From: Anthoceros angustus
Taxonomy: Eukaryota; Plantae; Anthocerotophyta
Length of the DNA: 64,000 nt
NCBI GenBank assembly: GCA_010909165.1
Contig: MU008200.1
Span: forward strand, 124,001-188,000
Direction of reading: 5' to 3'
A program made the translations under genes and the position numbers. Below are positions 5,654 through 64,000 of the stretch, one piece after another; the stretch's first letter is position 1; every line of letters starts with the position of its first letter. Under the pieces are notes generated by a model that saw nothing but the letters and a program-made list of their open reading frames with translations, searched no databases and was not told where the DNA came from.

Positions 5654-5679
5654 GTCCTGTTGTTTGCAGGGACGCAAAC

Positions 5680-5694
5680 AAGTGGGAAGGGGGG
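5680..5694 (+). other. Polypurine tract of Gypsy element 1
   Basis: aagtgggaagggggg 27 bp after the integrase stop and 2 nt before TGTGG. Confidence 0.85.
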
Positions 5695-28736: not shown

Positions 28737-29174
28737 GGTTGAACCCTAGGGACGATGCACAGTTTCTGGTTCCCCTTTCCAACGGTGCTTGCTATGCTTG
28801 CAGCAGGAACAACGTTGAATGCCGTGTTGTCCCCTTAGAAAATTTGCTTTTAGAGTAACGCTTCATGGTTGCGTTTGTTCTGGAGCTCATCAATACTCAC
28901 GATTTCTTCACTTTGTAATTTCCAACTCTCTGAGTGTATTTGCTACTACAATCGCATTGTGAATATTGGGACGTCAAAGTAATGATTTTTTAGACATTAC
29001 ACGTGAAGGGATAGGCCTAAATATCCGTTGGACTCGCGATCGCTTTACTTTTTAATCTTCAACTCCGGGGAGTGTATTTGCTACCATACTAATGGCATTA
29101 GTGAAATAAAGATAAAAAGGTGAAAAGATAAAAGAGCTGAAAAGCTAAGTTAGTAGCTCTGCCCTGTCAAGAAG

Positions 29175-31950: not shown

Positions 31951-32844
31951 ACAGCACTTCATCCTTTACATCCATCCTATTCTCTTGCAGTCTCCGTAGC
32001 AATTCCGTTGTCTTCCTTAGTGGACCGAGGAGACTGGCCTCATCACCCTCGTCTATTTGGGTTGCCGTCTCTGCCCTCATCCTCGTCTTGGGTCTACTCC
32101 AGCAGAGCTCCACATTTACATTGATTGCCCATCCCTTCAATTGGGCACAAGCTCCCACAGTATGGCGCTCATCCCACTCTCCTTCATCTGCCCCTGCGAT
32201 AGTGCTTTCTGCATCCCAAGCTGACCTCATGTCCTGCTTACGTCGCTTCTTCCGTCCCCTTGTGTCTGCCCTGGATGTTTTCTCGAATACCTGAGCCCAC
32301 TTCTAGTCTTCACGATCACGAGTGACAGCAGCACAGTTGCCAGCTTTATTGCTAGATGGGACGCCATTGCACTACAAGCCGGTCATTGCACTCGAGTGGA
32401 GTTATTGGCGTCAAGAGGAGTGTAAGGGGCCTGCTACGCGTGACCGCTTCGTATTGGGTTGTTTAATTAAGCTCGTGTCGCTTAAGGGGGTTGTTAGATT
32501 ATTTAATCAACACTTGGCTTAACCTAGACTAGGGTTAGTTATGGTTATGTGAAAGGTTGCATAGATGGGTATTTGGGAGGTATTAAATCATACAATTTTG
32601 TTCAATCATTATTCTAATTAATTGCTCTTTCCCGTGAGTCTGCCCTTTGGTCCCCCATTAAACAATCAAGCAGGCCAGGCCGTATTCTGAAAAGGGGAAT
32701 AAAGAAGGAAGTTATGTACATCATACATAATACAGTAGACAAAACCGGCAGGAAACCAGCATAGGAGCGACAACTGGCCTGCTACATCAGGTACATATAA
32801 TTTGGACCAAAATATCGAACTGTTGCGAAGAGTTTTTTGGTGGA

Positions 32845-35800: not shown

Positions 35801-37236
35801 CATTGGTTGTAGGTTTGGTGGAAGAGGGATGGGTGTCCTGCTTTCGAGAAAGTGACTCCAGATCAAAAAGTACCAGCAGATGCTAGCAAGAGGCGGTATG
35901 TTCGGAACTTCCAGAGAAGTTGTGTAGCAATGTCAGGCAGACTTTGTCATTCCTGAAGATACAGGCTGGTTGCATGTTGGGTAGTGAGGTCTTTCTTGGA
36001 GGAAGGCTGAAATGTTTTGGATCGCATCAGCAGGCCTAGATGGAGGCTTGGGAATAAGGAGCTTTCGCAACTTTGGAAGTGGTCTGAACAGAACCCGGTA
36101 ATAATTCAATCTTTTGCCTTTAAATCTTCCATAAATAGCCGTTTCTTGTTTCTTAGCAAACCGTGCCCTCTGAAGTTGCTAGAGGTGGTGACAGAATGCA
36201 CTGACAGATGTTCAACGGGTGAGAGTTCCTCATGTTTCTGAATACTGGAAACCTCTTGCCGAAGAAGTAAGTGATGGGACCTTGTCCGTCTGTTTCTGTT
36301 CTTTTTTTAAGTCTTGATTTGTTAGTACATACCCAATTTATTTCTGCACGGGATGTCCTGGTAGCTTGATCCTGCAGCAGGCATTGAACCAGAGTACAGC
36401 CGGAAGCAGAATCGGGTGGGTGCTCTTCGCCTCTTTCTGGGTTACTGTGCTAAAATATAAAGTAAATCAGGGGTGGTATTGTCATTTTGCACAAGTTTTG
36501 TGAGAAGTTTTCTCACCTGCATCGATACTTTGGTGAAACAGGTCTACTGCTGGAAAGGGTTGAGGTTTTCATGCCGTCAAGATCTTGAAGGGTTTTCGAG
36601 GGTACGTATGCTCCTGTGTCCCGGGTTATGTAACGGATGTTCCTGAGTTGCGGTATGTGGAAATATTATGATAGCAGTGTCTGTAGGGCAGTCCAGCTAA
36701 GAAAACCCGGGATAGCAGTTCACAGATCATGGGATAGAATCGGTCATTCCGCCAGAGTTGTTGCCTGTGGAAGTGCGAGCGAAATTTCATGGTAAGAACC
36801 AAGAGAGGTTAAAGCAGAAAGGTGTGAAGAAGGATGAGGATGTTGGGCACGCAGTTCCTCAATCAGAGTTGCTGGTAATCATCCCTATTCTCACTCTTGG
36901 TTGTCAGCTGTGTTTCCGGAGTGATGGGGCTGAAATTCTGTGTCACATCAATGACAGATCACTGAAAAGATGCCCTTGGGTGAAGCCGGTAGTCAAGCTC
37001 CAGAAGGGGGTCCTGGGGACATGGATGCCGCGACACAGCCTTCGATTCTCAGCAGGCTGAACTTAGGATCAGGCAAACGCTTGGCTTCAGAAGCAGATGA
37101 TGCAGTTGTAATTAACACTGCAACCGTGTCCCTGGAGAAAGGTCTGATAGAGGCCCGTGACTTCAAGAAGGTGTCCCCCGACTTGAAGTCTCCTGATGAA
37201 GGCGGAAGGAAACGTGCCCGCCCCGACAGTACGTGA
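32845..37236 (+). CDS. THO1: THO complex subunit 1 (HPR1/THOC1), multi-exon
   Basis: Exons spell DVFSEAISKP, KQTVLVQDENQLLENGLRTLLEDLV, LCEKGHVEGGMVFQLLEDLTE, GKLVMLRTCNQLLRRLSK, FNIKYLTS, RWRLGNKELSQLW, VYCWKGLRF. Start is inferred as a lone ATG exon at 32845 spliced to 33116; the 3' end is taken from the stop at 37236. Confidence 0.93.
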
Positions 37237-37448
37237 AGGCCATTTTTCATATCCGAACTCTAGAGTGCCGAAGTTACTCAATTAGTCCTTCGCATACACT
37301 TTTTGGTGCATGGTCCTGGAATATTGCAACCGCATAGGCAATACCACAAGTACTGAATGAATTCTGGAGCTTCGCTTTCATAATCTATATATGAGTATTA
37401 TAATAGTTTCCTTGCCTAAGCTTCCATGTACCAACGATGCAAAATATA

Positions 37449-37555
37449 TATGTCACCAGAGCGAGCAAAGACTGCCACTCTTGTCCTCCAGCAAGGAACC
37501 TTATGTCACCAGAGCGAGCAAAGACTTGCCACTCTTGTCCTCCATTAACGAACCT
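37449..37555. repeat. ~53-bp tandem duplication
   Basis: tatgtcaccagagcgagcaaagact(t)gccactcttgtcctcca at 37449 and 37502. Confidence 0.9.
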
Positions 37556-38390
37556 TGAGCAAGAGATGATGCAGCCAACATTTCCTAACTTGGTATAGAC
37601 ATAACAAGATTAGCACACATCTCCCCATGTGGCCCGTAGAGCTCCTATTTTGGCAGTAGCATCATCTACAAGGAAAGTGCTTGGCTAGCAAAGTGGACAG
37701 TGTTGCTGCATATGCAATCGAAATGCATGTAACCACGCTAGAATACCTCCAAGTCTTCCACTGTCAGCGATAATCCAAGCAGCTGGAACCCCGTTATAGT
37801 AAGTATCAAACACCAACAAGGTGTACAAGTGGAATTTCTACTTATTGGTGCCAAAAGTGGCATCAATAGAGATAACACTATTGTGACCAAATTGGAGCAT
37901 CGTGGATCTCTGAAAAGAAGTTTGCACCCCCTAGGTGAAAGAGCCTAAATAAGAATGATACTAAATAATGTCCTTGTGAGCTTCTATCCACATTCGGACA
38001 CTTATCTCATCGTTCCGATGGTATTGGTAAAAGCCTTTGGTAACTGTAGATGCGATGTTATCAATGTTATGTGGTTGAAGGAAGTCATCACGGCTGGGTT
38101 CATAGCCACAAACTTGTGCTTTCAAACCCAGGTACCTTTTAAACATGCTCCAAATAGGTCTATCTTCTAGTGGCCCCTGCGAAAAGTCTGTGTCAGACCC
38201 ATGAACGTATCTCAATGCTTAAATGAGCAGCAAACCTTGCATGTGGGTTTGCATTGTACTAGAAGCTATAATAGACTTGCTTGGAGTTGTCGACATGCTG
38301 GTTATAGACAATAAACACTGCAACAAGATTGTAGGTATTTAGAGCATCGTGCTATCAACAACGTTCACGCACCCACGCACATGAACATTA
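37540..38390 (-). pseudogene. Mutator-like (MULE) transposase relic, At1g60560-type
   Basis: Minus strand reads IVYNQHVD, ARFAAHLSIEIRSWV, SIDATFGTNK*KFHLYTLLVFDTYYNGVPAAWII, STFLVDDATAKIGAL, LILLCLYQVRKCW; several in-frame stops. Confidence 0.78.
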
Positions 38391-38514
38391 GTGTTCATAA
38401 AGAAGAAGAACCGCATGAAATAGTCTCAAGCAGTTGTAACGGTAAAGTAACCTAATACTAACACATAACCTAAGATATTAAGCTAATGTATATAAGTATA
38501 TGTACTGTACTTTT

Positions 38515-38530
38515 CCAACACTCCCACTTA
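38515..38530 (-). other. Possible PPT-LTR junction (Copia style)
   Basis: Minus strand taagtgggag|tgttgg, similar to tgagtggag|tgttga at 62436-62450. Confidence 0.45.
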
Positions 38531-38689
38531 TTATGTATATCTTAATTGGATAATTTACACGGCTACCACACTAAAACCCTGAACCCTCAGAATCATTGCT
38601 ATCGAAGAACATGGGTTACTCCTCAAACGCCCAAGTAGCTCTCACATGCATACAACAGCCTACTACCATGAATCACGCGACGAGGTAAG

Positions 38690-39980
38690 AATTCATATAA
38701 GCACTTCCTCGACAAACAACCAAGCAAAACATATCTAATACGCAGATATATAGGTGCAACCAATAACAACAGTGAGTAGCTCGACATCGTGGCACAAACA
38801 CACTCTCCCCACGAAACGCAAATTCTCGCACATCGCCTTGAGTCATAGCTATTGTAGAGGACAAGCATGATCGAGCATCGCCGAAGGGTCTATATATATT
38901 GCTTGCATCGCAGAGAGTAAGATATCTCACGGTATAAAAGAGGCCGAAAATATCTAAGAATACACTATGATATGCAAGGAATATGCCAAAGCATATTACT
39001 TGAGCTTATCCACTTAGCTATTGCTAACCATGTTTAATTAACACTAATCAATGCTTAATTACATAAGCACTTAGATTAATTAACACTAATCAATGCTTAA
39101 AGATAAGTAAGCATTAATTAACACTAATTACATACTTAAAGATAAATAATTATATTAATTAACACTAATTACATACTTAAAGATAAGTAATTAGATTAAT
39201 TAATGCTAATCAAACACTAAACCCAAAGTGCAAAGATTAGTATCACACGGCATTGCCGCAGGTAAGCACTTGAATTCATATAAGCACTTCCTCGACAAAC
39301 AACCAAGCAAAACATATCTAATACGCAGATATATAGGTGCAAACCAATAACAACAGGAGGGAGTAGCTCGCACATCGTGGCACAAACACACTCTCCCCAC
39401 GAGAACAACATGCAAATTCCTCGCACATCGCTCTCGGAGTCATAGCTTTGCATTGCATATGTAGAGGACAAGCTATGATCTGAGCTTGTCCTCAGTGGAA
39501 GGGTCTATATATACTAGCCCTTGGCATCGGCATAATCCTAAGATATCCTATTGGCATTAGCATATGCCGGAAATATCCTAAGAATACACTATGATATGCA
39601 AGGAATATGCCAAAGCATATTACTTGAGTTTATCCACTTAGCTATTACTAACCATGTTTAATTAACATAATCAATGCTTAATTACATAAGCACCTTAGAT
39701 TAATTAACACTAATTGCATACTTAAAGATAAGTAATTACATTATTAACACTAATTACATACTTAAAGATAAATAATTATATTAATTAACACTAATTACAT
39801 ACTTAAAGATAAGCAATTAGATTAATTAATGCTAATCAAACACTAAACCCAAAGTGCAAAGATTAGTATCACACGGCATGACAGCTGTCGCACAAGGTAA
39901 GCACTTGAATTCATATAAGCACTTCCTCGACAAACAACCAAGCAAAACATATCTAATATGCAAATATATAGGTGCAAACC
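38690..39980. repeat. ~580-635 bp imperfect tandem repeat (2 full + 1 partial) with internal AT-rich ~30-bp repeats
   Basis: gaattcatataagcacttcctcgacaaacaaccaagcaaaacatatctaat at ~38690, ~39272, ~39907; taattaacactaatt...cttaaagataa arrays at 39050-39205 and 39660-39835. Confidence 0.88.
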
Positions 39981-40519
39981 AATCCCCCCTGATAATGTGA
40001 AACTCCAAGTCAAAACATTATCATTAGTAGGACTACACACGACGCACCTCATGTAGTGCATTGTGGACAAAACCAATCTCCTTCGGAATGTCGAGGTTAT
40101 GAACCTTGTCCATGAGTGGAGGCTTGTCTTGATCCTTATGGCCCATGTGGACTACTCTCCCCACCGGTTGCTCGCCATTTTCTTCTTGCCCATCGAGCCT
40201 CGGCCTCCGCGAACACTGTTCATTCTTGATTAGTTCTATGTGGAACTTCCCTTTGGTGTACTTCCCCATCTCCGCAAGCGTGAAAGCAAACACATGTCGC
40301 GATGCCTCCAACAACTCCTTTAGCTGACGCCGTTGATTGCTCTTCAACTCGACGCCTGTTAACCACTCATGTGGCTGTGGCTCAGATGGCTTGCACGCTT
40401 CCTCTACGTGCTCACTCTCCTTGCCCTCCAAACTCGCCTTCTCCTGTTGAGATGCGAGTGCTGGAATGTCCTTCACCCACCGAACCCGCTGCTTCAACCC
40501 CGCCTTCTTCTAGTTTCGA

Positions 40520-41460
40520 AGTTGGTAAGCGACTCCAGCGCTAAACAACCAGGTCATCATGTTCATGTCAAATGCTTGCCCAAGCAATCGACACACTTCC
40601 TGGCCACTCCCTGTCTTCGTGGCTCCGATCAAATCCATGGCCAACTCCTCTGTGGTTGGCTCTCCCAAGGCCTCGCCATGTCCGTCACCACAACGCCGGG
40701 CCATGGTTCCAAGGCGTAAGACTTGGACTTGGACACAAAGGTTGGCCAAGCCGCCATGGGGTGTCCAGCGTGTTCACAGTGAAGAAGTGCGCTTGTCGCC
40801 TTGATGACTTGTTGGGCATGCCTTCCCGATGCTAGCACATCCTTGACAACATGATTAGGTCGCTTGGTGAGCGACCTCGCACACTTCAAATGTTCCAAGG
40901 GAGCAAGGTTAGTCCACATGGACCTCAACCTATGAGCCCTCGAACCAAATTGAGTGCATCCAATAGAAGCTCCCGACCCAACACTCGGATCGTGGCAAAG
41001 TCCTCCGAACTTGCTTCTTCACGCTCATGCATGCCGGCACATTCTCCAACATGTATCCACAAGGCCTTTCTTGCCCTTTCTCGATCAAGCGCAAGATCCT
41101 CATCAGTCATAGAACAATGCTGCGTGGATCCTTCGACCTTGACCCTTGCCTCGCAGAGGATAGTCCTTGACACTCCCAACTGCGATGACAAGGTCCACCG
41201 CTGCCCAAGACAACTCAAATGGGACAACCCTATCATGCGAACATCCATCGGCAGCGCCCGGTAACCCTTCACCGACTCCCACGCCAGGTTAGGTACTCCC
41301 CATCAAGTCTCTACGCCCGTGACACAATCCTTGCTTTTGGATCCGGGTCACAATGCACGATCTTCGCACTTTGATGCCACACTTTAGCACCGCCTGCCGG
41401 TAATCGATGCCTCCAAAGAGTTCCACGAGCACTATGCCATCTTCCGAGGTCGCCATGTGA
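40520..41460 (-). pseudogene. C5-cytosine DNA methyltransferase domain (DNMT3-like), copy A
   Basis: Motif I IVLVELFGG (~41409-41435), IV DLVIA(G)WECQG (Cys codon 41170-41172), VI GYMLENVP (~41040), VIII AHRLRSMWTNL (~40915-40950), X CRLLGQAFDMNMMTWLF (~40545-40595); 1-bp indels split the frame. Confidence 0.88.
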
Positions 41461-42289
41461 TGACCGGGTGTTTAGGTCACAAACAGTGCTCAACCCCGCT
41501 CATAGGACACCGGGTCCTCTTGCACCATCCTCCACAGCCTTTTGCACGGCTCATTGCTGCAGCCACCAGCTGTCCAGTGACTTGAAGAACCTCCTCCGAG
41601 GGTGGTTGCAACCCTAGCTTGTTTTCCTCCTCCTCGCCGAAATCCTCCATCGTCGGGGTTGTTGTTAGACACACGCCAAGAGGTTCAAGCACGTATGGCG
41701 TGTCCTTCACTACGGCGCCAAACATCGGGTAGACGCTGCTGGCAATGAGGTTCTCATGATCCTTGCCATGCAGAGGGATGCGGGCAATCCGCTCATCGCT
41801 TTTTGCTCCAGCTTCTCCTGGTCGATAGTAGACTGCCTCCGCCCACAAATCCACTATGACTCTAGGTTTGTACAATCGTTTGGTTTGAATGAAACCTTCA
41901 GCTTGTACCTTGTCACCCCAACACATGCTCCGTGGTCCACCGCGGTCCGGATCTTCCACTTGGTTTCCTTCAACCTTTCTTGGTGGAGACCCAACGCTTC
42001 CTTCACTCTTCTTCCAACGATCACCGGTGCTCCGTGTCAATCAACACCCTCCTTGGTGCGAATCCATTGATTTCAATGTGCCTCTCCGATTGTTGACCAA
42101 AGCCACCCCCACTCGTGCAGCATTCCGCTTCTCCACAGAGATGCTTGGTTCGGAGGTCAGCAATGACATCATTGCTACCTGCTGTGGCAAATCTTGGACA
42201 CTTGCTTTGTCTTCAAGGGTTGTCAACATCCGCCGAGTCAAACCCCTGACTTCCTTCACGCTCAACCCCGCCTTCGTTTCGTTGGTAAG

Positions 42290-43230
42290 CGACGCTAAAC
42301 AACCGTGTCATCATGTTCACGCCAAATGCTTGCCCAAGCAATCGACACTCCTTCCTGGCCACTCCCTGTCTTCGTGGCTCCGATCAAATCCCATGGCCAA
42401 CTCCTCTCTGTGGCTGTTGGCTCTCCCAAGGCCTCGCCATGTCTTCCACCACAACGCCGGGCCATGGTTCCCAAGGCGTAAGACTTGGACTTGGACACAA
42501 AGGTTGGCCAAGCCGCCATGGGGTGTCCAGCGTGTTCACAGGAAGTGCCTTGTCGCCTTGATGACTTGTTGGGCATGCCTTCCGATGCTAGCACATCCTT
42601 GACAACATGATTAGGTCGCTTGGTGAACGACCAAGACACTTCAAATGTTCCAAGGAGCAAGGTTAGTCCACATGGACCTCAACCTATGAGCCCTCGAACC
42701 AAATTGAGTGCATCCAATAGAAGCTCCCGACCCAACACTCCTGGATCGTGGCAAAGTCCTCCGAACTTGCTTCTTCACGCTCATGCATGCCGGCACATTC
42801 TCCAACATGTATCCACAAGGCCTTTCTTGCCCTTTCTCGATCAAGCGCAAGATCCTCATCAGTCATAGAACAATGCCGCTCGTGGATCCTTCGACCTTGA
42901 CCCTTGCCTCGCAGAGGATAGTCCTCGACACTCCAACCCGCGATGACAAGGTCCACCGCTGCCCAAGACAACTCAAATGGGACAACCCTATCATGCGAAC
43001 ATCCATCGGCAGCGCCTCGTAACCCTTCACCGACTCCCACGCCAGGTTAGGTACTCCCCATCAAGTCTCACGCTCGGACACAATCCTTGCTTTTGGATCC
43101 GGATCACAATGCACGTATCTTCGTACTTTGACGCCACACTTCAGCACTGCTTCCAAGCCGGTACTGATGCCTCCAAAGAGTTCCACAAGCACTATGCCAT
43201 CTTCCCGAGGTCGCCACGTGATCACCTGGG
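42290..43230 (-). pseudogene. C5-cytosine DNA methyltransferase domain (DNMT3-like), copy B
   Basis: GIVLVELFGGISTGLEAVLKCGVKVRRYVHCDPD (ORF 43061-43306), DLVIAGW(E)C (Cys codon 42928-42930), PCGYMLENVP and AHRLRSMWTNL (ORF 42641-42859), ELAMGFDRS (ORF 42317-42511). Confidence 0.88.
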
Positions 43231-44572
43231 TGTTTAGATCACAAACAGGCTCAACCCTGCTCATAGGACACTGGGCCTCTTGCACCATCCTCCACAGCTT
43301 TTGCACGGCTCATTGCTGCAGTCACCAGCTCCGTCCAGCTAACTTGAAGAACCTCCTATGAGGGTGGTTGCAACCCTAGCTTATCTTCCTCCTCCTCGTC
43401 GAAATCCTCCATCGCCGCGGTTGTTAGACACACGCCAAGAGGTTCAAGCACGATGGCGGTCCTTCACTACGGCGCCAAACACGGGTAGACGCTGGCAATG
43501 AGGTTCTCATGATCCTTGCCATGCAACCGCAGAGGGATGCGGGCAATCCGTTCATCAGTTTTGCTCCAGCTTCTCTAGCCTGGTCGATAGTAGACTGTCT
43601 CCGTCCACAAATCCACTATGACTCTAGGTTTGTACAACTGTTCTTGGTTTGAATGAAACCTTCAGCTTGTACCTTGTCACTCCCAACACATGCTCCGTGG
43701 TCCCAGCTGCGGTCTGGATCTTCCACTTGGTTTCCTTCAACCTTTCTTGGTGGAGACCCAACGCTTCCTTCACTCTTCTTCCAACGATCACCTACCCGGC
43801 TCTGTCAATCAACACCTCCTTGGTGCGAATCCATTGATTTCAATGTGCCTCCCGATTGTTGACCAAAGCCACTCCCACTGCGGCAAGATTCCGCTTCTCC
43901 ACAGAGATGCATTGGTTCGGAGGTCAAGAATGACATCATTGCTACCGTGGCAAATCTTGGACACTTGCTTCGCCTTCAAGGGTTGTCAACATCCGCCGAG
44001 TCAAACCCCTCGACTTCCTTCACGCCAACCCCATGTCTTGTAGGCTGAAACATGGCATCTCCGAAGCTTTTGTGCCATCGCCTCACAAGAATCTGCATGG
44101 GTTTCTCCACATCGCCCACTGACTTTGATGTTGCTCGCTTGCTCTGCTGGCAATGACTCAAATGACTTTGGCATCTTGGCATAGGTTCAGGAAGAGGATC
44201 TCGAAGCTTCCTTCCGTGTCTTCCGCATTGCAAGTGTCAAGACGTCCTCTTCTTCCTCTGAACTATCTTCCCTCGTTGTTGCCAGAGGTTTCTTCCCCTT
44301 GCCCTTGGATCTGGTCACAGTCACCATGTATCCAAGCTTATGCTCATCTTCTTCGTCCTCTGATGATGAACTGCTGCTCTTCTTGATCTTCGCCTTCTGC
44401 ACCAACTTCTCCAGCTTTGCGAGGTGTGCCACGTAGCTGTCCATCGTCTTCTTTGATACCTGAACAGTAGGCACAGAAGGCTTGTGGTGAAGTGGTGCCA
44501 GTGGTGGTGCATCGCGATAGCCGGGACTCTTTGCTTCCATAAACTCTGAGCCCGCGTCACAGGTCAGGAAGC

Positions 44573-46260
44573 ATGGCCCCTAAGAAGACCACTTCGGTGG
44601 CCATTGAGGCCATTACCACTGTCCAGTGGCCCAACATGGGCCACTGGAGAGTGAAGGCGGGTTCTTTGGTGGCTACATCACTGTCCTTCATGGACAAAAA
44701 GTGACAAAAGCTTAGCCGCTGGTTCGGGAGTGCAGGCACATGAGGGAGAAGGCCAGGGAAGGCAACGAGAACCAACCCCGCACTGGAATATTCTTCCATG
44801 TCTGTTTATGAGAGGCTCAAGAGGAATGTGGTGGAATAATCATTGATCCTTTCAGAAGCCATCTCCCAAAAGTCGCAGGAGGCACAAGTCGCCATTGCTC
44901 CCACATTGTCTAGGGTGGAGAATGGTCAGTCACCAACAAGTTAGACCCGAAATGGCCGGATTAGCCATGGATCCTGTGGCTCACCACTAAGAAGCTAGAG
45001 CACATTGTCGACCATTTTCTTGTCTTTCTATGAGGTGGTGAGAGGGTCCAAGATAGATTGGGCCAGGATGTTCTATGACACAAGATGTGTGGAGAGGGAC
45101 CACTTGACCCTACCATCACCCAGCCCTCCGCTATCTCCTTCTTAATCCACGTTTTCGACCATGCCAAGTTGCTGGAGGGGATGGAGATGGTCTCACCTTT
45201 CCATGCCGGAGGCCGTGTTTGAAAGAAGGAAGCCCAAAGAGGAGTCGAGGAAGAGGCCATCTCCTGGCACCGGGAGTGAAGATGAGAAGTCCAAGTGTCC
45301 ATGAAGAGGAATGTGGCGCTGCTAAGGTAGCATCACCATGGCTAACAAAGCAACTGGAGTTGCTAAGGCCCCAACAGCACCAAGAGGGGCCGAGAGCAAC
45401 AGGGGACTCCAACCACCTAGAGCCACAAGAGCACGACGGGAGCTCACCGGATGTAAGACAAGGAAAGGCTGGCAGGGCCAGGAGCCTGTGGGCCGGGAAA
45501 CCACAGTCATCAGGAGGAATCACCCAACCTTGGGCACGGCCGAGCTGATCCGAGAAAGTGACCACTGCTCAAGGTGACCTCAAGTATACCCCAAGTGGTG
45601 GGGAGAGCCGGGCCATACAGATAGGAAGGAGGGAACCCATCCCCAAGAAGGTTTGGGGACCTAACATCACCCTACAAGAGCCGGTCTCGCTATGGCACGC
45701 ACTAGGTGAGATGGAGGACCGATAGCTCGTCCTCTTTGTTAGGTTTACAAAGCAAAGGTGGGGAGCAGCTAAAGGAGCTCCAGGAGATGAAGAAGGAGAA
45801 GGAGGTCTTGGAGGGACGCCTAGGTAGCTTGGAAGTGGAAATAGGAAGGTCCGAGAGTTGCAGAAGACCAAGGATCAGAAACCTCATGGCTCGCCTCTGA
45901 CGTAACACCATAGGAGAGCGCAGAATGTCATCAGATGCACAAGTTCAGCCGAAACTCGGATGCCTCACGGGCGCCACAAGAAGGAGAGGGACGAGGCAAG
46001 GAAAGGTCGGAAGGAGGCCAAGAGGGCTGGATTGCAAGGAGAGCCACCGTGGAAGATGCGAGCTCCCATGGAAGAATCTGTCGAGTTAGCAATGAGGAGG
46101 TTGCAAGCAACCCGCCACTAAGGAAGCAACAACCTGCACTGCTTAAGGGAGCAACAGCTCCAAGACCGCTACAACAAGGAAGAAGGGGCAATGTAAGACT
46201 GTGAGGAGGACAAAAAGCTGTGGGGAGCGGGTAAGCACCGCCTAAGAAGTCTAACTTCCC
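44573..46260 (+). pseudogene. Divergent homologue of the LTR-borne accessory ORF
   Basis: Begins MAPKKTTS; FYEVVRGSKIDWARMFYD...FLIHVFDHAKLL (~45030-45170) parallels ISRGAKPDWGTIMYE...YLVHLWETEGLL; coiled coil KEVLEGRLG parallels EKVLEGKLS at ~54020. Confidence 0.6.
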
Positions 46261-46519
46261 AATGGTGCATTAGATTGAGGGATGCTTATCAAGATAACCA
46301 TGTGCCTGGATTCTCCTTGGCTGGAGAGAAGATTGTCTCCCTGAAAGTTTATGTGGTTGTGGGCACAGGGGGGACATGGAGGTACGTGATCCATGCCTTG
46401 ACGGGCACTGGATCCTACCTATGGGTTGGACTCTTATGGAGGAGACTTTCAGCCGACCCATCCAGGATTCAAGAGCTCACCGAGGAGGAGTACCAGGCTA
46501 TGCTGCGAGCACAAGAGAG

Positions 46520-47762
46520 GCAAGGGGAAGGAACCACCTGCCAAGGGTTCCTCCTCAAGAGGAGGAAGGGGAAAGAAGGCGGCAGCGGAGGTTGCGCCGC
46601 CAGGAGGGGGTGAAGTCGAGATGCCCCAATTCACTTGTTTTGCGGGGCAACTCAATCCCCGCGATTTGGTGGATTTCCGGCAGTGGGCGGAGGAAGATAA
46701 CATCCAATTGGGATGGGTGTATGGCCGCCAATGGGCCTACACCAATTTGGAATTGATTGAGGAGTGTTACATCAACCTCCATCAATCGGAAGCAGCCTGC
46801 CACAGCCGGAGAGATGCCGGACCGATCTGCTGCGGGACATCCCGAGCATCTGTGTGTATGGAAGGCCGGAGGAGGAGAGCTCAGGAATCGCTCTCCTCGA
46901 GAGGACGAATGGAGGGAAGAGGATCTCCCTCACCGAAATTCCGCAGGAGGTCCTAGACATGATGGATGGAGGGGTGAAGGCCCACGCCAAGAATGGCTAG
47001 AAGACGGATAGCATCAAGGAGCTAAAGTGGAGACTCTTTGCCAAAATTGTGTTGGGGTTGGTGAACTATCAACGGACTTCCTATTTCAGCACCAACTTCC
47101 TCCAATTTTTGTGGAAGATCTCTCGAGGAGCCAAGCCGGATTGGGGCACCATCATGTATGAGGCCTACATCCATCACAGGGAGAAGCTCCTTAGGCCGAA
47201 TTCCGTGGATCAAGAGGGGCCAAGGCCATGCTACCTCAGCACCTATTTGGTGCACTTGTGGGAGACGGAGGGGCTCTTGACCAGCAAAGAGCTTGAGGAT
47301 GCTTGGCATCCTTTTGAAGTCATTCACCTCCAGCCAAGCTTAGAGAGGCCCCTACCCTTTGCATTGAGGAGGACCATGGGAGGACAGACCTCCACAAGCA
47401 CTCTAGGACCCAGGATTGAGGAAGTGGAGGCAACAAGGTTGCCGGAGTGGGAGGCCTTTCCCCCACAAGAGCAAGGAGGAGGAGAAGAGCAAGACCTGGC
47501 CAAGGAGGGCCAAGTGGTAGTTTATGAGAGAAGAACTACCGCTCCAAGGGTGGGGGGAGTCCCCACCATTGCATGGGTGCCTAGGGAAGAGGCACCTGCA
47601 GCCTACCCGGGGGAGGCAGCCATCGAGGCAGGCAGACTCACTGTGGTAGGCCACCACCACTGTAGGTGGCGATTTGTGGCCAGATCCGCAAGGGTGGTGG
47701 AAAGCAAGGGGGGAGCCTTGTGGTCTCCTTGGAGGGAGTTCCCAAGGTCAAGAGGAAGGGGG
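46520..47762 (+). pseudogene. Accessory ORF copy (N-terminal half)
   Basis: MPQFTCFAGQLNPRDLVDFRQWAEEDNIQLGWVYGRQWAYTNLELIEECY and LVNYQRTSYFSTNFLQFLWKISRGAKPDWG, near-identical to 51000 and 52565. Confidence 0.75.
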
Positions 47763-47763
47763 T

Positions 47764-48860
47764 TGTGAAGCCGGGGAGGCTGTCCATTCTCTTACTCATT
47801 CTCTTCAGTTTGTCTAGTACTCACCTTGTGTTTGAGTTTTCAGGGTGTTGGAGGTCGTGTGTGAGGGGAAGACAAGGCGGGGAGCCTATGTGTGTGGAAG
47901 AGAGCTGAAGGGGAAGTTGAAGTGAGTTGGAGACCTGTGGGCTTGTGTGTTTGGAACTGAAGGTGAACTGTGAGAGAAGTGGAGAATGCTGGACATGGAG
48001 AGTTGCTGATTGGCTGTTTGAGAGGAGTAAGAAGGACTGGAGAAGTCTGTAAGTGATGTTTGTGTTGCTGAAGAAGAGAGCTGTGAGTGGAGGTTAAGGA
48101 CCCCGTGAGTGGATGAGACGGAATGATTGCGGGAGGTAGCTGAACAAGTATTTTGAGGGTTGGTGAAGTACTGTAAGGGCCTGGATGAGAACCTTGTAAG
48201 GACTGGAGAGGTACTGTGAGCTGTGAAAGTGGAGATTGAATGGGGCAGTGAGGTGTGAGAACAAGGAGGGTTGAAGGGAGTTGCTGGGGAAACTTGGAGA
48301 GTGTGGGGAGGACTGTGAGAGGCACCTCAAGGGGCTGTGAGAGCCTGGAGAGGTTTGCATGGAGCCGAGAGAGTGAGCTGAAGGGCTGGAGGAGAGGAAA
48401 GGAGGCCTGAAGAAGTGCTACAAGAGTAAGGGGGTAGTTTGTGTGAGCGGCAACCCTGATTGGTGGATCTGACTTTGTGGGTAGATGAGAGAGAGAGAGG
48501 GGCCAGCCTTATCCGCTTGGATCTCCACGTGGGATCCACCCTTCTATTAATAGTCAGACCTGATCCCAAGGTGGACCCCACTCTGCTAAAAATAGAGAGT
48601 GGTTGCTAAGATAGCGACCGGGGCTGTCCGTTGCTAAGGTAGCAACACGGTCGGGCGTGGCTAAGATAGCCACAGGTCTGAGTGTTGTAGCCTGGTCTGT
48701 AACTACTAGATGTTTGGTGTGTCTGTGTTTGGGTGGATTGGCTATGATTTGGTTGTCTTGACACGAAATCACTCCCTTGGGTACGAATCTCAAGTCTACA
48801 ACGATAAAGAGGGTAAATGTGGCCTCTTTGTGACCACTTGGTTTAGAAAATCACCCCACA
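47764..48860. repeat. TG...CA-bounded ~1.1 kb LTR-like segment
   Basis: Starts tgtgaagcc, ends aaatcaccccaca; non-coding and strand-biased; last 46 bp repeated at 63434-63479. No matching TSD. Confidence 0.55.
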
Positions 48861-49874
48861 GTGGGTGAAGGACATTCCAGCACTCGCATCTCAACTGGAG
48901 AAGGCGAGTTTGGAGGGCAAGGAGAGCGAGCACGTAGAGGAAGCGTGCAAGCCATCTGAGCCACAGCCACATGAGTGGTTAACAGCCGAGTTGAAGAGCA
49001 AATCAACGGCCGCCTAAAGGAGTTGTTGGAGGCATCGCGACATGTGTTTGCTTTCACGCTATGGAGATGGGGAAGTACACCAAAGGGAAGTTCCACATAG
49101 AATCGACTACGGATGAACCAAAGGTTCAGAGGAGGCATGTGCTCGCAAGGCCGAGTGGATTTGGTTGAGAATCAATGCCAAGAGCTTCTCAAGCTAGGGC
49201 TGATTCGACGATCTAACTCGCAGACGCACCGCGACAAGCTTCCAAAAAGAAGGATGAGAATGGATTGTGGACGGAGAGGAGAATGTGTGGTGACTATCGC
49301 CTTTGAATGAGCGAATCCCACATGACCACTATCCCATGCCGATGGTCAAGAGATCTTTGACACCATTGGGTCTGCCAAGTTCTTCTCAACATTGGACTTG
49401 AGGCTAGGGTTTCACCAAGTGGAGATTGCCGAAGAAGACAAGAAGAAAACGGCGTTCTGGGGCAGAGATTGCTTGTACGAGTGGAACTACATGCTATTTG
49501 GGTTGAAGACATCGCCAACGCAGTTTTAAAGATACATGGACAATGAGCTCAAGGACTTGCCTTTCACCAAGTGCTACATTGATGATGTCATCGTCTTCAG
49601 CAATACCTTTGAGGAGCATCTACAACATCTTCGAGTAGTCTTTGCTAGACTGGCTGCCTGTGGGTTGAAGGCCCATCCAGGGAACTGTCAATTTGGAGAG
49701 GACAAGGTGTTGTACTTGGGTCATTGGATCACGCCTGACGGGATCTCGCCGCATGCCACCAAGGTGGAGGCAATCGCCAGATTCCTGCCAAACGACATCT
49801 CGAGGTTGAGGGCATTCTTGGGGTCGGCAGGTTACTACAGGAAGTTCATTCCGCGGATGAGCAGGATTGCGCGG
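48861..49874 (+). pseudogene. RT of the DNMT-Gypsy family (linker + RT)
   Basis: 48861-49100 matches the sequence directly downstream of DNMT copy A (40480-40230, reverse complement); RRMCGDY, DLRLGFHQV, TKCYIDDVIV, RAFLGSAGYYRKFIPRMSRIAR. Confidence 0.88.
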
Positions 49875-52800
49875 TGTGGAATGCAAAAGTTTGGGCAACC
49901 ATCCCAAACTAGCTTGAGGAAGAGCGACTTGAATTTTTTTTGGCTGAAAACGATTGGAGAGGGACATGTTGGGAATTTTCAGAAACTTGAGCCACCGGAG
50001 TCAGAGGGGTATTGGTGGGGAAGCAAAGAGGATATCCGGGAGAAGAAATGGGTCAAAACGACCCCGTGCAAAGGCGGGGCACCGAAGTAGGGCAGACTAA
50101 CCCGTAGGGTCGCCACACTCACGCCGAGGTCGAGCTAAGAGCATACCACGAGGGTGGTCACCTACCGTAGTCGACAAGATCTCGAGAAAAGAAATTAATA
50201 TAGGGGGATATCCACTATATATGCTCACCAATAGGGAATAGATAAATAGAAATAAATAATTGAAACATATTTAGAGGTAGAAAATGGCGGTGTAGGTAAT
50301 TTAGGAGGATTAGGTATTTTAGATTAGGTATTTTAGATGAACCAAATCTAGGGCGAGCCCAAGTGGCAGCAATCCAAGGAGTGCGCTTTGGCAACACCAA
50401 CTTCGCTCAAGGGGCGTCCACTTCACGAAGGACTGAGACTGGAGCTGGAACGCAAGAGGAGAGGAGAGGAAGTCGCCATCGCCGCCAACACCGCCGCACG
50501 AAAGCCGAGGAAGGAGCGGCCAAGCTGAAGAAGGAGAGGAAACCCTAGCTGGAGCGAGGAGGAGAAGAGGAAGGCGCCAAGCGCCCTGGAGTGTTGCGGA
50601 GTTTTTCGAGCTCTGGGAAGTTGGGAGGAGCGCACAAGGCCGGGGTGTTGGAAGGAGCCTCAAGGTGGAGGCGCACCGGGGTACCCAAAGGGCGAGGTTG
50701 AAGAAATTAAAGGCGAGAAGGAGCGCGATTCCAAGGGCGCCGCTTGGGAAGGAAAATCGAGGAAATTGGCACGAGGGAGCCAAGCCTAACGGATTGCTGT
50801 GGGGTTTGCACCTGCAAGGAGGAGGAGTGTTTGAGAGAAGTACACCAAATTGGAGAAGTAATTTTCCTTGAAGCACTTGAGAAAAGAAGGCGCCATGCCT
50901 CGAAGGAAAGGCAAGGGAAGGAGCCACTGCCAAGGGTTCCTCCTCGAGGAGGAAAGGAAAGAAGGCAGAGGCCGCGCCGCTGTGAGGGGTGAGGTCGAGA
51001 TGCCCCAATTCACTTGCTTTGCAGCTCAACCCCGGATTTGGTGATTTGGCGTGAGGAGGAGAACATCCACTGATGGGTGTATACGCCAATGGGCCTACAC
51101 TAATTTGGAATTGATTGAGGAGTGTTACATCAACCTCCATCAATCAAGCGCCTGCCCGGAGAGGAATGCTGAACGGATCCCGCTACCGGGAGCATTCGAC
51201 AAGTGTATGGAAGGACGGAGGAGGAGAGCTCAGAATTGCTCTCTCGAGAGGACAAATGGAGGGAAGAGGAGCCCTCCGACATTCCCAGAGTTCCTCGACA
51301 TGATGGATGAGGAGGAGGAAGGCCCACGCCAAGAATGGCTGGAAGACCGAGAGCATCAAGGAGTCAAGTGGAGGCTCTTCAAAGATTGTGTTGGTGAAAT
51401 TACCAACGACTTTATTTCAAAGACCAACTTCCTCCAATTTTTGTGGAAGATTTCATGGGAGCCAAGCCGATTGGGGCATGTATGATGAGGCCTACATCCA
51501 CCACGAGAAGCTCCTCAAGCCAAATTGTGGATGAGGAAGGCCAAGCTTACCTTAGCACCTATTTGGTGCATTTATGGGAAACCGAGGACTCTCACAAGCA
51601 AGGAGCTTGAAGATGCATGGCATCCTTTGAGGTCATCCATCTCCAATTTGAGAAAGGCCTTTGCCTTGAGGAAGACGGGAGGTCGACCTCCACAAGCACA
51701 TGACCAAGGGCGGAGGAAGTAGAGGCAACAGGTTGCCGTGAGTGGGAGGCCTTTCCACAAGAGCAAGGGAAGGAGAGGCAAGACCGGCCGAGGAGGGGAT
51801 GGTAGTCTATGAGAGAAGGACCACTGTGAGGGGTGACCCAAGGTGGGGGAGTCCCCACCATCTTTTGTGCCTAGAGAGGCACCCTCGGCCCCACCCCGAG
51901 GGGAGCCCACCCAAGGGTGGGCATCACTGGTAGGCCACCACTACCATGGTAGAGGCCACCGGGGGAGCCCCACTGGTAGGCAGCACCCCACGCCCAGTGC
52001 CCACAAGGGGAAGGAGAAGGAAAGGAGGCGCGAAGGCGCCTGCCGCCCACCCGCTTGGGAGAGCGGGGCGATGGAGGGGACCCACGCCACCGATGGCCCA
52101 AGTGAGGGAGCTGGAGATTTCCAGAAGAAGGAGGGGTGGAATTAGGACCCCTAGGAGAATTGGGTGCTTGTGAAGCACTCACCATGTGGATTTGAAGGGG
52201 CTAGGGACAGCACCTCCTTGTGGGCATGCCAAGAGGAAGTCAAGGCCCAAGAGATGACGAGGGAGAGCAGGACCAAATGGCAATTGGAGGCCATGGAGTC
52301 CGAGAAGGCAGCCAAGTTGGAAAAGGTCAGGAGAAGCTCCAGCCGACCTGTGGATGGGGCGAGAAGGTCCTGAGGGAAGGTTGTCAAAGAAGAAAGAGCC
52401 ATCCGCAACCACCCAACGGACTCATGGAGGCAAATAGGGAGGAGCATTTTGCCCAATTAGAGCAAGAGAGGAAGGGCAAGGGAAGGAGCCACTAAGGGTT
52501 CCTCCTCAAGAGGAGGAAAGGAAAGAAGCGGCGGCGGAGGTTGCGCCCGGGAGGGGTGAGTCGAGATGCCCCAATTTCGTGCTTTGCTGAGGCAGCTCAA
52601 TCCCCGCGACTTGGTCGATTTCCAATGGGCGTGAGGAGGATAACATCCATCAATTGGGATGGGTGTATGGCCGCCAATGGGCCTACACCAATTTGGAATT
52701 GATTGAGAGTGTTACAACCTCCATCAATCAGCGCCTTGCCACCTTGCAGGAGAGGAATGCTCGGGTGATCCAGCCTGGGCCGGTCCGCATTCGACAAGTG

Positions 52801-62620: not shown

Positions 62621-63479
62621 AGTTATAGTAGGTTCAGCTCCATGACTATTGTCTTTGTCTTGTTTGCTCAAAGTTGCTCTTTATTTGTGTTTTAAGGCCT
62701 CGTTTAGGTGGTCTTAGTTTTGCAATTCTGAACACTTGCTTTCTTGACACTTCTGACCCTCTTGAAGCATGGCTAGCTTCCAATCTCAACAAATCGTACC
62801 TGCTCTCTTGCTCTATGTCGGACCAGCAGCTCCTCTTCCTCATCACTGTCAAGCACGGTTTTGACCCTGGGAAGTTGTGTCCGTTCAATCCATCCACATA
62901 GTACTATTTTTCGACAAATTGGGCCCTCAAAAAGTCTCGCACATTGTCGTTGAGCCTGCAGGTACCAACATTCTGATGTTGGTTTATCCCACTCCAGAAC
63001 TCCTATGCGCAGACAAGCAAACAACCTATAGAAGGCTCTAGAATAGCCTATGGCAAAATGTCCCCGCCTCCCATGCAAATGAGGTGGACCTTTAAACTCG
63101 CAAGTCGAGTTTCTCTTCTTCAGAAGCCGTAAATCCTTCCTTAGGCCAATGATAAAAAACCTGATGCATAAAGAGATGGTGTTTTAGCTTGCGAAATGCT
63201 CCTTCAGAGTACCCGGTCCATACAAAAGTCTGCCTACTCATACCTCTGCCTGCGAGCTCAAAAACGTCCCGGTGATCATATGGAAAGCTTTCGATGTTGC
63301 AAGTCTCATGATGAGACTCCACATACAACAAAAAGCCTTGCAATGCCAAAAAGGTTTCGGGACGTTTAGGTTTGCCAGGTTAGTATTTTCGCACAAAGGA
63401 GTCTTCCACTTGTCTTCCCATGGCCTATCGGGAAAATGTGGCCTCTTTGTGACCACTTGGTTTAGAAAATCACCCCACA

Positions 63480-64000
63480 AAGGGTGAAGGATATTCCAGA
63501 CTGCATCTCAACTGGAGAAGGCGAGTTTGGAGGGCAAGGAGAGCGAGCACGAGAGGCAAGCCATCCGAGCCACAGCCACATGAGTGGTTAACAGCCGAGT
63601 TGAAGAGCAAATCAACGCCAGCTAAAGGAGTTGTTGGAGGCATCGCGACATGTGTTTGCTTTCACGCTATGGAGATGGGGAAGTACACCAAAGGGAAGTT
63701 CCATAGAATCGACTACCGGATGAACCAAAGGTTCAGAGGAGGCATGTGCTCGCAAGGCTGAGTGGATTTGGTTGAGAATCAATGCCAAGAGCTTCTCAAG
63801 CTAGGGCTGATTCGACGATCTAACTCGCAGACTAAATGCTGGCTGTTGCTTCCAAAAAGAAGGATGAAAATGGATTGTGGACGGAGAGGAGAATGTGTGG
63901 TGACTATCGGCCTTTGAATGAGCGAATCCCACATGACCACTATCCCATGCCGATGGTCGAAGAGATCTTTGACACCATTGGGTCTGCCAAGTTCTTCTCA
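63480..64000 (+). pseudogene. Third copy of DNMT-Gypsy linker + RT N-terminus (runs off the window)
   Basis: Near-identical to 48861-49390; KKKDENGLWTERRMCGDYRPLNERIPHDHYPMPMVEEIFD. Confidence 0.88.

What the first reader, a model, noticed from the sequence alone, without database searches (positions are those of the whole stretch)
40200..44560. Ty3/Gypsy retrotransposon encoding a DNMT3-like cytosine methyltransferase inside Pol, between protease and RT
Seen: on the - strand a retroviral-type protease (VLIDT(G)) is followed by C5-MTase motifs in canonical order: I (IVLVELFGGISTG, SAM binding), IV (DLVIAGWECQG consensus), VI (YMLENVP), VIII (AHRLRSMWTNL, cf. DNMT3A AHRARYFWGNL), IX (ELAMGF) and X (CRLLGQAFDMNMMTWLF, cf. 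DNMT3A QRLLGRSWSVPVIRHLF). The RT N-terminus follows with no gene boundary. Known: to my recollection, retrotransposon-borne DNMTs were described in Symbiodinium and the charophyte Klebsormidium (de Mendoza et al. 2018); they are not a standard land-plant Gypsy domain, and angiosperms lack DNMT3. Inference: the polyprotein delivers its own methyltransferase with the RT, and could methylate new cDNA or insertion sites. Its position among land-plant-type genes suggests the system extends beyond the algae.
Basis: partly seen in the sequence, partly recalled or inferred. Interest (0 to 1): 0.93.

Follow-up and report, generated by a model that had tools for sequence, protein, structure and literature searches.

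The report
Broken Gypsy retrotransposon carrying DNMT3 methylase
This is a broken copy of a repeated Gypsy-type jumping gene, likely in a hornwort-like land plant, that encodes a DNMT3-like DNA-methylase domain between its protease and reverse transcriptase, a design already described in a green alga, and the enzyme would likely methylate the element's own new DNA copies.

Summary
On the minus strand lie gag remnant, protease, DNMT3-like domain (twice, through a 1.77-kb tandem duplication), about 50 codons of RT, a deletion of RT core/RNase H/integrase, a likely PHD tail and B-A-B-A-B terminal repeats. Each methyltransferase copy aligns over the whole family profile (234 and 226 bits; controls at most 22), with 15 and 9 breaks. 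Relatives match DNMT3 best. The segment is not unique to this locus: short-read contigs of two organisms cover it far deeper than a neighbouring host gene. Intact PR-DNMT-RT-RH-IN(-PHD) relatives exist (P0159, L001, Closterium fragments), with DIRS-like split repeats and 4-bp target duplications. The window shares their repeat-junction motif. This fits KnitGypsy-Dnmt3 (de Mendoza 2018); I found no paper reporting it in land plants. The host is likely a non-seed land plant (inferred). Enzyme activity and role are untested. This scan noted the same kind of element before, in this genome and others. New member of a known kind; interest 0.5.

The parts
43910..44600 (-). 5'-truncated gag/linker remnant; no 5' repeat in the window; 5' edge approximate
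   Evidence: tblastn and frameshift-aware match to P0269 from 44073; run X2 depth drops to 0 beyond 44756; the 3' repeats have no copy elsewhere in the window
43550..43905 (-). Aspartic protease, copy A, broken; lacks about 26 residues that relatives have, including the D-x-L-L-G motif
   Evidence: 67.1 bits to a protease profile of 16 relatives over 43905-43639; gap against P0269; loose contig ends at 43637 in runs X1 and X3 carry other letters that read as that motif (read by eye)
42273..43222 (-). DNMT3-like C5 cytosine methyltransferase domain, copy A, 15 frame breaks
   Evidence: 233.7 bits, profile positions 1-338; read-through P0001 hits DNMT3A/B/C first in the PDB
41780..42184 (-). Aspartic protease, copy B, broken, same internal deletion as copy A
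   Evidence: 78.1 bits over 42184-41878
40522..41459 (-). DNMT3-like methyltransferase domain, copy B, 9 breaks; motif IV W-E-C-Q-G, VI ENVP, VIII R-x-H-R-x-R and X readable
   Evidence: 225.5 bits, profile positions 2-337; 148 of 395 identical to P0159 through to the RT start
40510..40512 (-). In-frame TAG between methyltransferase and linker; conserved stop or decay of a CAG codon, unresolved
   Evidence: it is followed by AAG, not by the CAR seen in relatives with a conserved stop
40190..40509 (-). Linker and first ~50 profile positions of RT, in frame with motif X; an internal deletion follows
   Evidence: 42.3 bits, RT profile 1-50, no breaks; 94% alike to the RT copy at 48861-49102
40052..40084 (-). 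Likely last 11 residues of a C-terminal PHD finger (W-x-C-x2-C, then stop); weak
   Evidence: 26.0 bits vs best 21.1 of 100 shuffles; 19.7 vs 19.3 with a second profile; same position as the PHD of relatives
38689..39983 (-). 3' split direct repeats in the order B-A-B-A-B (B about 80-100 nt, A about 500-540 nt), with the conserved B|A junction at 39890-39875
   Evidence: self-BLAST, repeat family D5, junction motif shared with relatives
40494..44032 (.). 1.77-kb tandem duplication (copies A and B) with short microhomology at the join; real or assembly artefact, unresolved
   Evidence: 56 substitutions and 51 gaps, 32 of them single bases
48811..49900 (+). Sister fragment of the same family: linker, whole RT, start of RNase H region; no methyltransferase upstream
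   Evidence: 330 bits to the RT profile, 6 breaks; RVT_1 E 6e-8 and 1e-9; groups with methyltransferase-before-RT elements, support 97
63430..64000 (+). Second sister fragment (linker and RT start), 94% alike to 48811-49388, cut by the window end

Best explanation
This is a dead, 5'-truncated, internally deleted and partly duplicated copy of a multicopy Ty3/Gypsy retrotransposon that encodes a DNMT3-like methyltransferase domain between protease and RT, likely of the streptophyte Gypsy-Dnmt3 kind and likely in a hornwort-like land plant, whose intact members would likely package the enzyme and methylate their own cDNA before insertion. Shown: domain order and homology; repetitiveness in two organisms; intact relatives with the order Gag-PR-DNMT-RT-RH-IN-PHD; purifying selection on the domain in relatives; split repeats A-coding-B-A-B with TG...CA ends and 4-bp target duplications in relatives. 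Inferred: the enzyme is made with Gag-PR (in one ORF with RT, or ahead of a leaky stop, depending on subfamily), so it enters the particle, is released by the protease and meets fresh cDNA. It would methylate that cDNA de novo, so the copy arrives marked like host heterochromatin, is less likely to be seen as foreign DNA and is likely self-silenced. The DDE integrase inserts the outer ends; the internal B|A junction likely serves as the template that regenerates those ends. Odds: identity 0.9, land-plant host 0.85 (hornwort 0.65), catalytically active in intact copies 0.75, own cDNA as main target 0.5.
For: Profile alignment 234/226 bits vs controls at most 22. 323 relatives at E<=0.001; PF00145 in 17 of 27 scanned. 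The relatives' profile hits DNMT3A at 1.7e-21, before DRM2 (5.8e-9) and M.HhaI (2.3e-9). The model of relative P0131 (pLDDT 90.4) matches DNMT3B/3A first. P0159 is an unbroken 2188-aa zf-CCHC-PR-DNMT-RT-RH-IN; P0255, P0231, P0226 and P0284 are Closterium. In the 165-row methyltransferase tree the window sits in a 36-row clade (99) holding all 24 'before-RT' rows; the sister RT groups with all 8 such rows (97). Of 80 metagenome loci, 26 show PR-MT-RT-RH-IN-PHD and none has the methyltransferase after RNase H of the same element. dN/dS of the domain is 0.11-0.18 in 6 pairs of diverged or intact relatives. Summed contig depth on the element is 186-1220 (X1) and 650-5492 (X2), against about 10 and 9 on the host gene. 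Split repeats, junction and target duplications. Host: the LRR kinase at 11753-14578 sits 100/100 with Marchantia, Physcomitrium and angiosperm orthologues, and no alga is named among the 120 best hits listed. De novo CG methylation was shown for Symbiodinium DIRS-Dnmt3 (PMC5890265).
Against: No activity data for this family; KnitGypsy-Dnmt3 gave no methylation in yeast (inconclusive per its authors). Motif IV is W-E-C, not the P-C known from DNMT3A and bacterial enzymes (recalled), although this is common in the family (GWECQ 55 of 111 matches; 62 of 79 loci). The window copies lie on a long branch with no supported nearest sister, and raw identity to after-RH proteins (39%) is close to that to before-RT ones (up to 42%). 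Both RT-bearing sister fragments in the window lack the methyltransferase upstream, so PR-DNMT-RT-RH-IN contiguity is not seen in this genome. Contig depth is not a copy number (tool note). No hornwort, Klebsormidium or host DNMT3 sequence was in any tree. The metagenome scan was seeded with before-RT proteins, so the uniform order there is partly by design. dN/dS among young decayed copies is higher (0.09-0.48, 5 pairs).
Confidence: 0.7

Rival explanations
1. Same element, but the domain acts on host chromatin at or near the insertion site, or genome-wide in trans, rather than on cDNA in the particle; the PHD finger on the integrase would guide the complex to silent chromatin.
For: PHD finger at the integrase C-terminus in 31 of 80 loci (Pfam PHD in L001); moss DNMT3b acts de novo in heterochromatin (PMC6453930 passages).
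Against: The domain sits beside Gag-PR, and in 10 of 61 loci ahead of a stop that separates it from the integrase ORF, which fits a particle role better than delivery with integrase. K. nitens has an ordinary plant-like methylome.
Confidence: 0.15
2. The domain is kept for a non-catalytic or weakly catalytic role (binding cDNA, RNA or SAM; shielding DNA), and the E-C motif marks loss of normal activity.
For: No activity of the Klebsormidium domain in yeast; P replaced by E before the catalytic Cys in most loci.
Against: Catalytic Cys, ENV and R-x-H-R-x-R motifs and the SAM-binding motif I are all kept; human DNMT3B also failed in that assay; P-C forms occur in the same clade.
Confidence: 0.1
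3. A host DNMT3 fragment captured by chance at this one locus, or a chimeric mis-assembly of unrelated pieces.
For: The assembly is indel-rich (12 gaps in 2810 nt against run X1 even in a host gene); the duplication may be an artefact.
Against: No introns; colinear with intact elements from protease to RT; high depth in two organisms; tree position among retrotransposon enzymes; shared repeat junction.
Confidence: 0.02
4. The element is real, but the host is not a land plant (for example a zygnematophyte alga), so there is no range extension.
For: The nearest named relatives are Closterium and Spirogloea; no named land plant is among the 46 hits; the host kinase is only 51-53% identical to its moss, liverwort and angiosperm orthologues over the kinase region.
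Against: That kinase's orthologue clade holds only land plants or unnamed records, though Closterium and Spirogloea proteins are in the same collection. Related elements in other records lie beside PPR-E-DYW and NAC genes (L004, L038), typical of land plants (established knowledge).
Confidence: 0.1

Closest known systems
KnitGypsy-Dnmt3 of Klebsormidium nitens (de Mendoza et al. 2018, PMC5890265; I read sections 9 and 11 whole and passages elsewhere; searched 3 supplement files; figures not seen). Called 'streptophytes (Gypsy-DNMT3)' in bioRxiv 10.64898/2026.05.21.726589 (passages)
   Same: Intronless, non-permuted Dnmt3-like domain in the coding region of a Gypsy element; DIRS-like repeat order A-coding-B-A-B; purifying selection on the domain (Ka/Ks under 0.2).
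   Different: Host likely a land plant; this copy is dead. The domain order in K. nitens is given only in Fig. 4c, which I could not see, and no K. nitens sequence was available, so common descent is untested.
Chlorophyte Gypsy elements with the order RT-RH-DNMT-IN-PHD (named hits: Haematococcus lacustris, Chlamydomonas eustigma)
   Same: Homologous DNMT3-like domain with the same W-[E/P]-C-Q motif; C-terminal PHD.
   Different: The domain lies after RNase H; they form the other side of both the methyltransferase and the RT trees. I found no paper describing them.
SymbioDIRS-Dnmt3 of Symbiodinium (PMC5890265, passages)
   Same: Dnmt3 in Pol; split repeats; shown to methylate CG de novo in yeast, the model for the mechanism proposed here.
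   Different: DIRS element with tyrosine recombinase; independent capture according to the authors. Relatives here have a DDE integrase and 4-bp target duplications.
Host DNMT3 of non-flowering plants, e.g. Physcomitrium PpDNMT3a/b (PMC6453930, passages)
   Same: DNMT3-type catalytic domain in canonical motif order.
   Different: Host enzymes carry a C-terminal DUF3444; here the domain is flanked by protease and RT. No host DNMT3 was in my trees.
EpiLTRs of Cymbomonas and Euglena (bioRxiv 10.64898/2026.05.21.726589, passages)
   Same: LTR retrotransposons with a cytosine methyltransferase and a chromatin-reader domain.
   Different: Their DNMT is sister to DNMT4, comes with a DAM domain and a chromodomain; a separate acquisition according to the authors.

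Membership tests
C5 cytosine methyltransferase, DNMT3 type | Motifs I-X in canonical (non-permuted) order over a full domain | tested here: met
   Full-length profile alignment of both copies
C5 cytosine methyltransferase, DNMT3 type | Closer to DNMT3 than to DRM, DNMT1, DNMT2 or bacterial enzymes | tested here: met
   By similarity and fold only; no tree with host DNMT3 was possible
C5 cytosine methyltransferase, DNMT3 type | Pfam PF00145 match | tested here: inconclusive
   0 of 11 broken window pieces; 17 of 27 relatives, P0159 E 5.9e-12; L001 E 1.8e-13
C5 cytosine methyltransferase, DNMT3 type | Catalytic Pro-Cys motif IV | tested here: inconclusive
   Cys present in copy B, but preceded by Glu; E-C is the commoner form in the family
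C5 cytosine methyltransferase, DNMT3 type | Methyl transfer to DNA cytosine | not testable with these tools
   Needs an assay
Ty3/Gypsy retrotransposon | Order PR-RT-RH-IN with DDE integrase | tested here: met
   In relatives; at this locus only PR and the RT start remain
Ty3/Gypsy retrotransposon | TG...CA ends and target-site duplication | tested here: met
   Relatives only: exact 4-bp duplication in 6 of 8 loci (4 distinct insertions), 3 of 4 bases in L043, L057 mis-anchored; not testable on this truncated copy
Ty3/Gypsy retrotransposon | Two plain LTRs flanking the coding region | tested here: not met
   Relatives have split repeats A-coding-B-A-B; the window has B-A-B-A-B at the 3' end only
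KnitGypsy-Dnmt3 / streptophyte Gypsy-DNMT3 | Intronless Dnmt3 inside the coding region of a Gypsy element | tested here: met
KnitGypsy-Dnmt3 / streptophyte Gypsy-DNMT3 | DNMT in the same ORF as RT and RNase H | tested here: inconclusive
   Same frame but a TAG at 40510-40512 here; one ORF in P0159 and an open linker in 14 of 61 loci; a stop followed by CAR in 10 of 61
KnitGypsy-Dnmt3 / streptophyte Gypsy-DNMT3 | DIRS-like repeat order A-coding-B-A-B | tested here: met
   Complete in L004, L011, L067, L074, L075 of 25 loci examined; the window keeps the 3' part and the junction motif; its 5' A is lost
KnitGypsy-Dnmt3 / streptophyte Gypsy-DNMT3 | [quoted passage not shown] | tested here: met
   Relatives only: 0.11-0.18 in 6 pairs, 0.09-0.48 in 5 pairs of decayed young copies; not measurable on copies A and B
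KnitGypsy-Dnmt3 / streptophyte Gypsy-DNMT3 | One clade with the K. nitens elements | not testable with these tools
   No K. nitens sequence came back named or 44
DIRS (tyrosine-recombinase) retrotransposon | Tyrosine recombinase instead of DDE integrase | tested here: not met
   Relatives carry rve and Integrase_H2C2 and no recombinase hit

The most novel reading that the evidence does not exclude
Gypsy-Dnmt3 is not a Klebsormidium oddity but an old lineage across green plants, from one DNMT3 capture, that split into a chlorophyte layout (RT-RH-DNMT-IN-PHD) and a streptophyte layout (Gag-PR-DNMT-RT-RH-IN-PHD). It stays abundant in bryophyte genomes, packs an active de novo methyltransferase into its particles, and replicates by a hybrid route: DIRS-like split repeats whose internal junction rebuilds TG...CA ends for a DDE integrase. 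Land plants would then host a transposon-borne de novo methylation pathway independent of RdDM.
Probability: 0.35. Interest if true: 0.75.

Novelty: new member of a known kind. Interest (0 to 1): 0.5.

Why it matters
Retrotransposons that carry their host's silencing enzyme have been described from two algal lineages, and what the enzyme does for the element is open (PMC5890265 discussion). A repeated family in a land plant, with intact relatives and two domain layouts across green algae and plants, moves that question into genetically workable bryophytes. It also warns that counts of DNMT3 genes in such genomes may include transposon copies. The split repeats with a DDE integrase and target duplications pose a separate, testable question about how the ends are regenerated. 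This particular copy is dead and adds range, not function.

Tried and rejected
No whole genome is held, so the genome-wide search for full-length copies could not be run. Pfam on 24 window pieces: no PF00145 or protease hit, RVT_1 only at 49326-50090. Word-indexed search with P0001 among longer proteins: 0 of 901 candidates. Exact look-up of the host kinase: not in the collection. Sequencing runs: no RNA holder listed. X3, a guessed RNA run, has a few element contigs at depth 2.5-5.6, which may be DNA, so no claim on expression. The reads did not settle the TAG or the duplication join, because the tables are cut and no listed piece bridges them. Alignment A2 was too diverse for a locus scan; viral contigs were not scanned. 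No clear Gag or zinc-knuckle match for 44250-46500. Kinase queries found nothing in the loci's flanks. Pfam on 16 other window ORFs gave one weak THO1 hit. Atlas: a Streptophyta-dominated PF00145 cluster tied at 0.96 with phage methylase clusters, and only phylum-level taxa for the kinase; neither names the host. Literature: no paper held all of hornwort, DNMT3, retrotransposon, Gypsy and methyltransferase; 'KnitGypsy' occurs in 1 paper; Gypsy-DNMT terms occur in 2. Searches gave listings with no report of land-plant elements (listings only, apart from passages of PMC10952607, PMC11982613, PMC12344493 and PMC7027989). The Anthoceros methyltransferase table (PMC10952607 Table S3) gave no hits for DNMT3, DRM, CMT or MET1 in the 5 held files, so it was not seen. 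Subscription papers, repeat databases and bioRxiv supplements were not searchable and may mention such elements. Rejected: plain LTRs; DIRS membership; a DRM-type permuted enzyme; nested insertion of a host gene.
Full report
1. What is in the window. The minus strand from about 44600 to 38690 holds one retrotransposon wreck. None of the 11 single-frame methyltransferase pieces matches Pfam PF00145. A single-frame read-through with X at two stops (P0001) hits the PDB weakly but specifically: 29 of 30 sequences at E<=10 are DNMT3A/B/C, best E 0.0024.

2. The domain is real. phmmer with P0001 over 1.84 billion representatives gave 323 proteins at E<=0.001 and listed 150. From these and later hits I built a profile of 126 full domains and aligned the window DNA to it, allowing frameshifts and writing X at each break. 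Copy A scores 233.7 bits (43222-42273, 15 breaks) and copy B 225.5 bits (41459-40522, 9 breaks); six shuffles and three other stretches score 13.5-22.0. The profile contains no window sequence, but its members were found with P0001. A profile of 28 short relatives hits DNMT3A at 1.7e-21, DRM2 at 5.8e-9 and M.HhaI at 2.3e-9. An AlphaFold model of the partial relative P0131 (210 aa, pLDDT 90.4) matches DNMT3B/3A first (E 7e-12). Motif IV reads W-E-C-Q in copy B. This differs from the usual Pro-Cys (recalled) but is the commoner form in the family (55 of 111 matches; 62 of 79 loci).

3. Two layouts among relatives. Of the 150 listed hits, 65 are methyltransferase alone, 78 place it after RT/RNase H or just before integrase, and 7 place it after protease or Gag or before RT. 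Named members of the first layout are chlorophytes (Haematococcus, Chlamydomonas eustigma); named members of the second are Closterium. A methyltransferase-only fragment comes from Spirogloea. No named land plant was returned. P0159 is an unbroken 2188-aa zinc knuckle-protease-DNMT-RT-RNase H-integrase protein; copy B is colinear with it from motif I to the RT start (148 of 395 identical). In a FastTree of 165 domains (those covering at least 170 profile positions, of 188) the window lies in a 36-row clade (99) with all 24 before-RT rows, 9 lone rows and 1 long-branched after-RH row. In a 34-row IQ-TREE run it stays on the before-RT side of the 98/97 split but on a long branch with no supported sister. 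The sister RT fragment at 48811, which shares about 250 nt at 94% with copy B, groups with all 8 before-RT RTs (97, 62 rows). Layout and both trees agree.

4. Anatomy from intact relatives. A metagenome scan seeded with seven protease-DNMT proteins found 508 relatives among 604 matched stretches and kept 80 loci; several are the same insertion in different assemblies. Twenty-six show PR-DNMT-RT-RH-IN-PHD, and none puts the domain after RNase H of the same element (partly by design of the query). L001 has two open frames, Gag-PR-DNMT (1369 aa) and RT-RH-IN-PHD (1047 aa), separated by one in-frame stop. Among 61 loci with both the domain end and the RT start, 14 have an open in-frame linker and 10 have TAG or TAA followed by CAR at an equivalent place; the rest are decayed. 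The window's TAG at 40510-40512 is followed by AAG and lies close to the domain end, so it may be a decayed CAG; unresolved. Of 25 loci checked for repeats, L004, L011, L067, L074 and L075 show A-coding-B-A-B in full. The B|A junction reads ...GACA, two bases, TGTCA...; a loose pattern finds it in 21 of 28 loci, two of them probably by chance. The window has the same motif once on the minus strand, at 39890, 168 nt after a likely PHD tail. Exact 4-bp target duplications flank the outer ends in 6 of 8 loci tested (4 distinct insertions; L043 3 of 4; L057 mis-anchored). The window's 3' end is B-A-B-A-B, one unit more than the relatives, and its 5' A is lost. dN/dS (simple counting method) of the domain is 0.11-0.18 in six pairs of diverged or intact relatives and 0.09-0.48 in five pairs of young decayed copies.

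5. Not unique to this locus. Contigs of two DNA runs, organisms A and B, were laid on 32600-44600. The host gene has depth about 10 (X1) and 9 (X2); the element has 186-1220 and 650-5492; the terminal repeats have 3840-6659 and 15441-27596. X2 has no cover on 44756-46710 but covers the RT fragment about as deeply as the methyltransferase. Summed contig depth is no copy number, but the contrast and the thousands of contigs laid show a repeated family in both organisms. X1 matches the host gene with 2 substitutions and 12 gaps in 2810 nt, so it is likely the same species and the assembly carries indel errors; X2 has 109 substitutions in 1812 nt, likely a related species. Many of the frame breaks may thus be sequencing errors. 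Copies A and B differ by 56 substitutions and 51 gaps, too many gaps for natural divergence, so the duplication could be real or an artefact. The truncation and the protease deletion shared by A and B look like real damage.

6. Host. The intronless LRR kinase at 11753-14578 has Physcomitrium (39%) and Marchantia (41%) as best hits, and no alga is named among the 120 listed of 782. It falls in a 100/100 clade with moss, liverwort and angiosperm orthologues, about equally far from each (51-53% in the kinase region). Window GC is 0.48 and 11 introns have a median of 118 nt, compatible with Anthoceros angustus (GC 49.6%, mean intron 173 nt; PMC7027989 passage) but also, from recall, with Selaginella. 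A non-seed land plant is likely and a hornwort is my best guess; neither is shown. Related elements in other records lie beside PPR-E-DYW and NAC genes (L004, L038), so a second land-plant host is likely.

7. How it likely works. Shown: structure, repetitiveness, constraint on the domain in relatives, integrase-type ends. Inferred: the domain is translated with Gag-PR, packaged, cut free, and methylates the new cDNA, as proposed for SymbioDIRS-Dnmt3, whose domain does methylate CG in yeast (PMC5890265). The Klebsormidium domain was inactive in the same assay, which the authors call inconclusive. The internal B|A junction looks like a join of two integrase ends and likely templates their regeneration; the extra A-B unit here and the much deeper cover of the repeats fit slippage or solo units. 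Rivals are action on host chromatin, a non-catalytic role, and an algal host.

8. What is known. KnitGypsy-Dnmt3 has an intronless Dnmt3 in Gypsy Pol, DIRS-like repeats and Ka/Ks under 0.2. Later papers cite it as 'streptophytes' without naming land plants in the passages I saw. My searches found no report from land plants or chlorophytes, within the limits of an open-access library. Earlier notes of this scan report the same kind of element 17 times in at least 4 genomes, including other pieces of this genome (none near this locus). They gave me the split-repeat and conserved-stop leads, which I tested above; they are not counted as support.

9. Verdict. Real feature, dead copy, new member of a known kind, with a likely range extension to land plants. 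Interest 0.5.

Noticed in passing
P0123, P0183, P0237, P0304 and others: A large set of Gypsy polyproteins with the order RT-RH-DNMT-IN-PHD; named members are the chlorophytes Haematococcus lacustris and Chlamydomonas eustigma. I found no paper on them.
   Followed up: partly
L001:5083-5085, also L002, L003, L005, L013, L018, L019, L032, L048, L050: A subfamily has an in-frame TAG/TAA followed by CAR between Gag-PR-DNMT and RT-RH-IN-PHD, resembling a read-through signal (recalled); it forms one clade in the RT tree.
   Followed up: partly
window 48811-48860 and 63430-63480: Both RT sister fragments start at the same point with the same ~50 nt that copy B lacks, so one derives from the other or both from a deleted subfamily.
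   Followed up: partly
window 46512-47660, 50904-52477, 52469-54141: Three diverged copies (77-80%) of another repeat with an unassigned ORF (47001-47768, no Pfam hit); deep cover in run X1, none in X2.
   Followed up: no
window ~1000-5653 (+): A separate broken Ty3/Gypsy pol (RT, RNase H, integrase) without methyltransferase; its RT is distant (34% at best) from the DNMT family.
   Followed up: partly
window ~59000-62420 (+): A broken Ty1/Copia gag-pol by eye (integrase before RT); not scanned.
   Followed up: no
window 56376-58868, 1-786, 9004-9484: Further tandem duplications with many small gaps (28 gaps in 1236 nt at 56.4-58.9 kb); the window is rich in them, which may reflect the assembly.
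   Followed up: partly
window 11753-14578 (+): Intronless LRR receptor kinase of the At2g24230 type, used as host marker.
   Followed up: yes
window ~32600-37400 (+): Multi-exon host gene, spliced at 11 listed joints in run X3, weak THO1 hit. The multi-exon gene at ~15000-28800 looks MOR1-like (recalled, not tested).
   Followed up: partly
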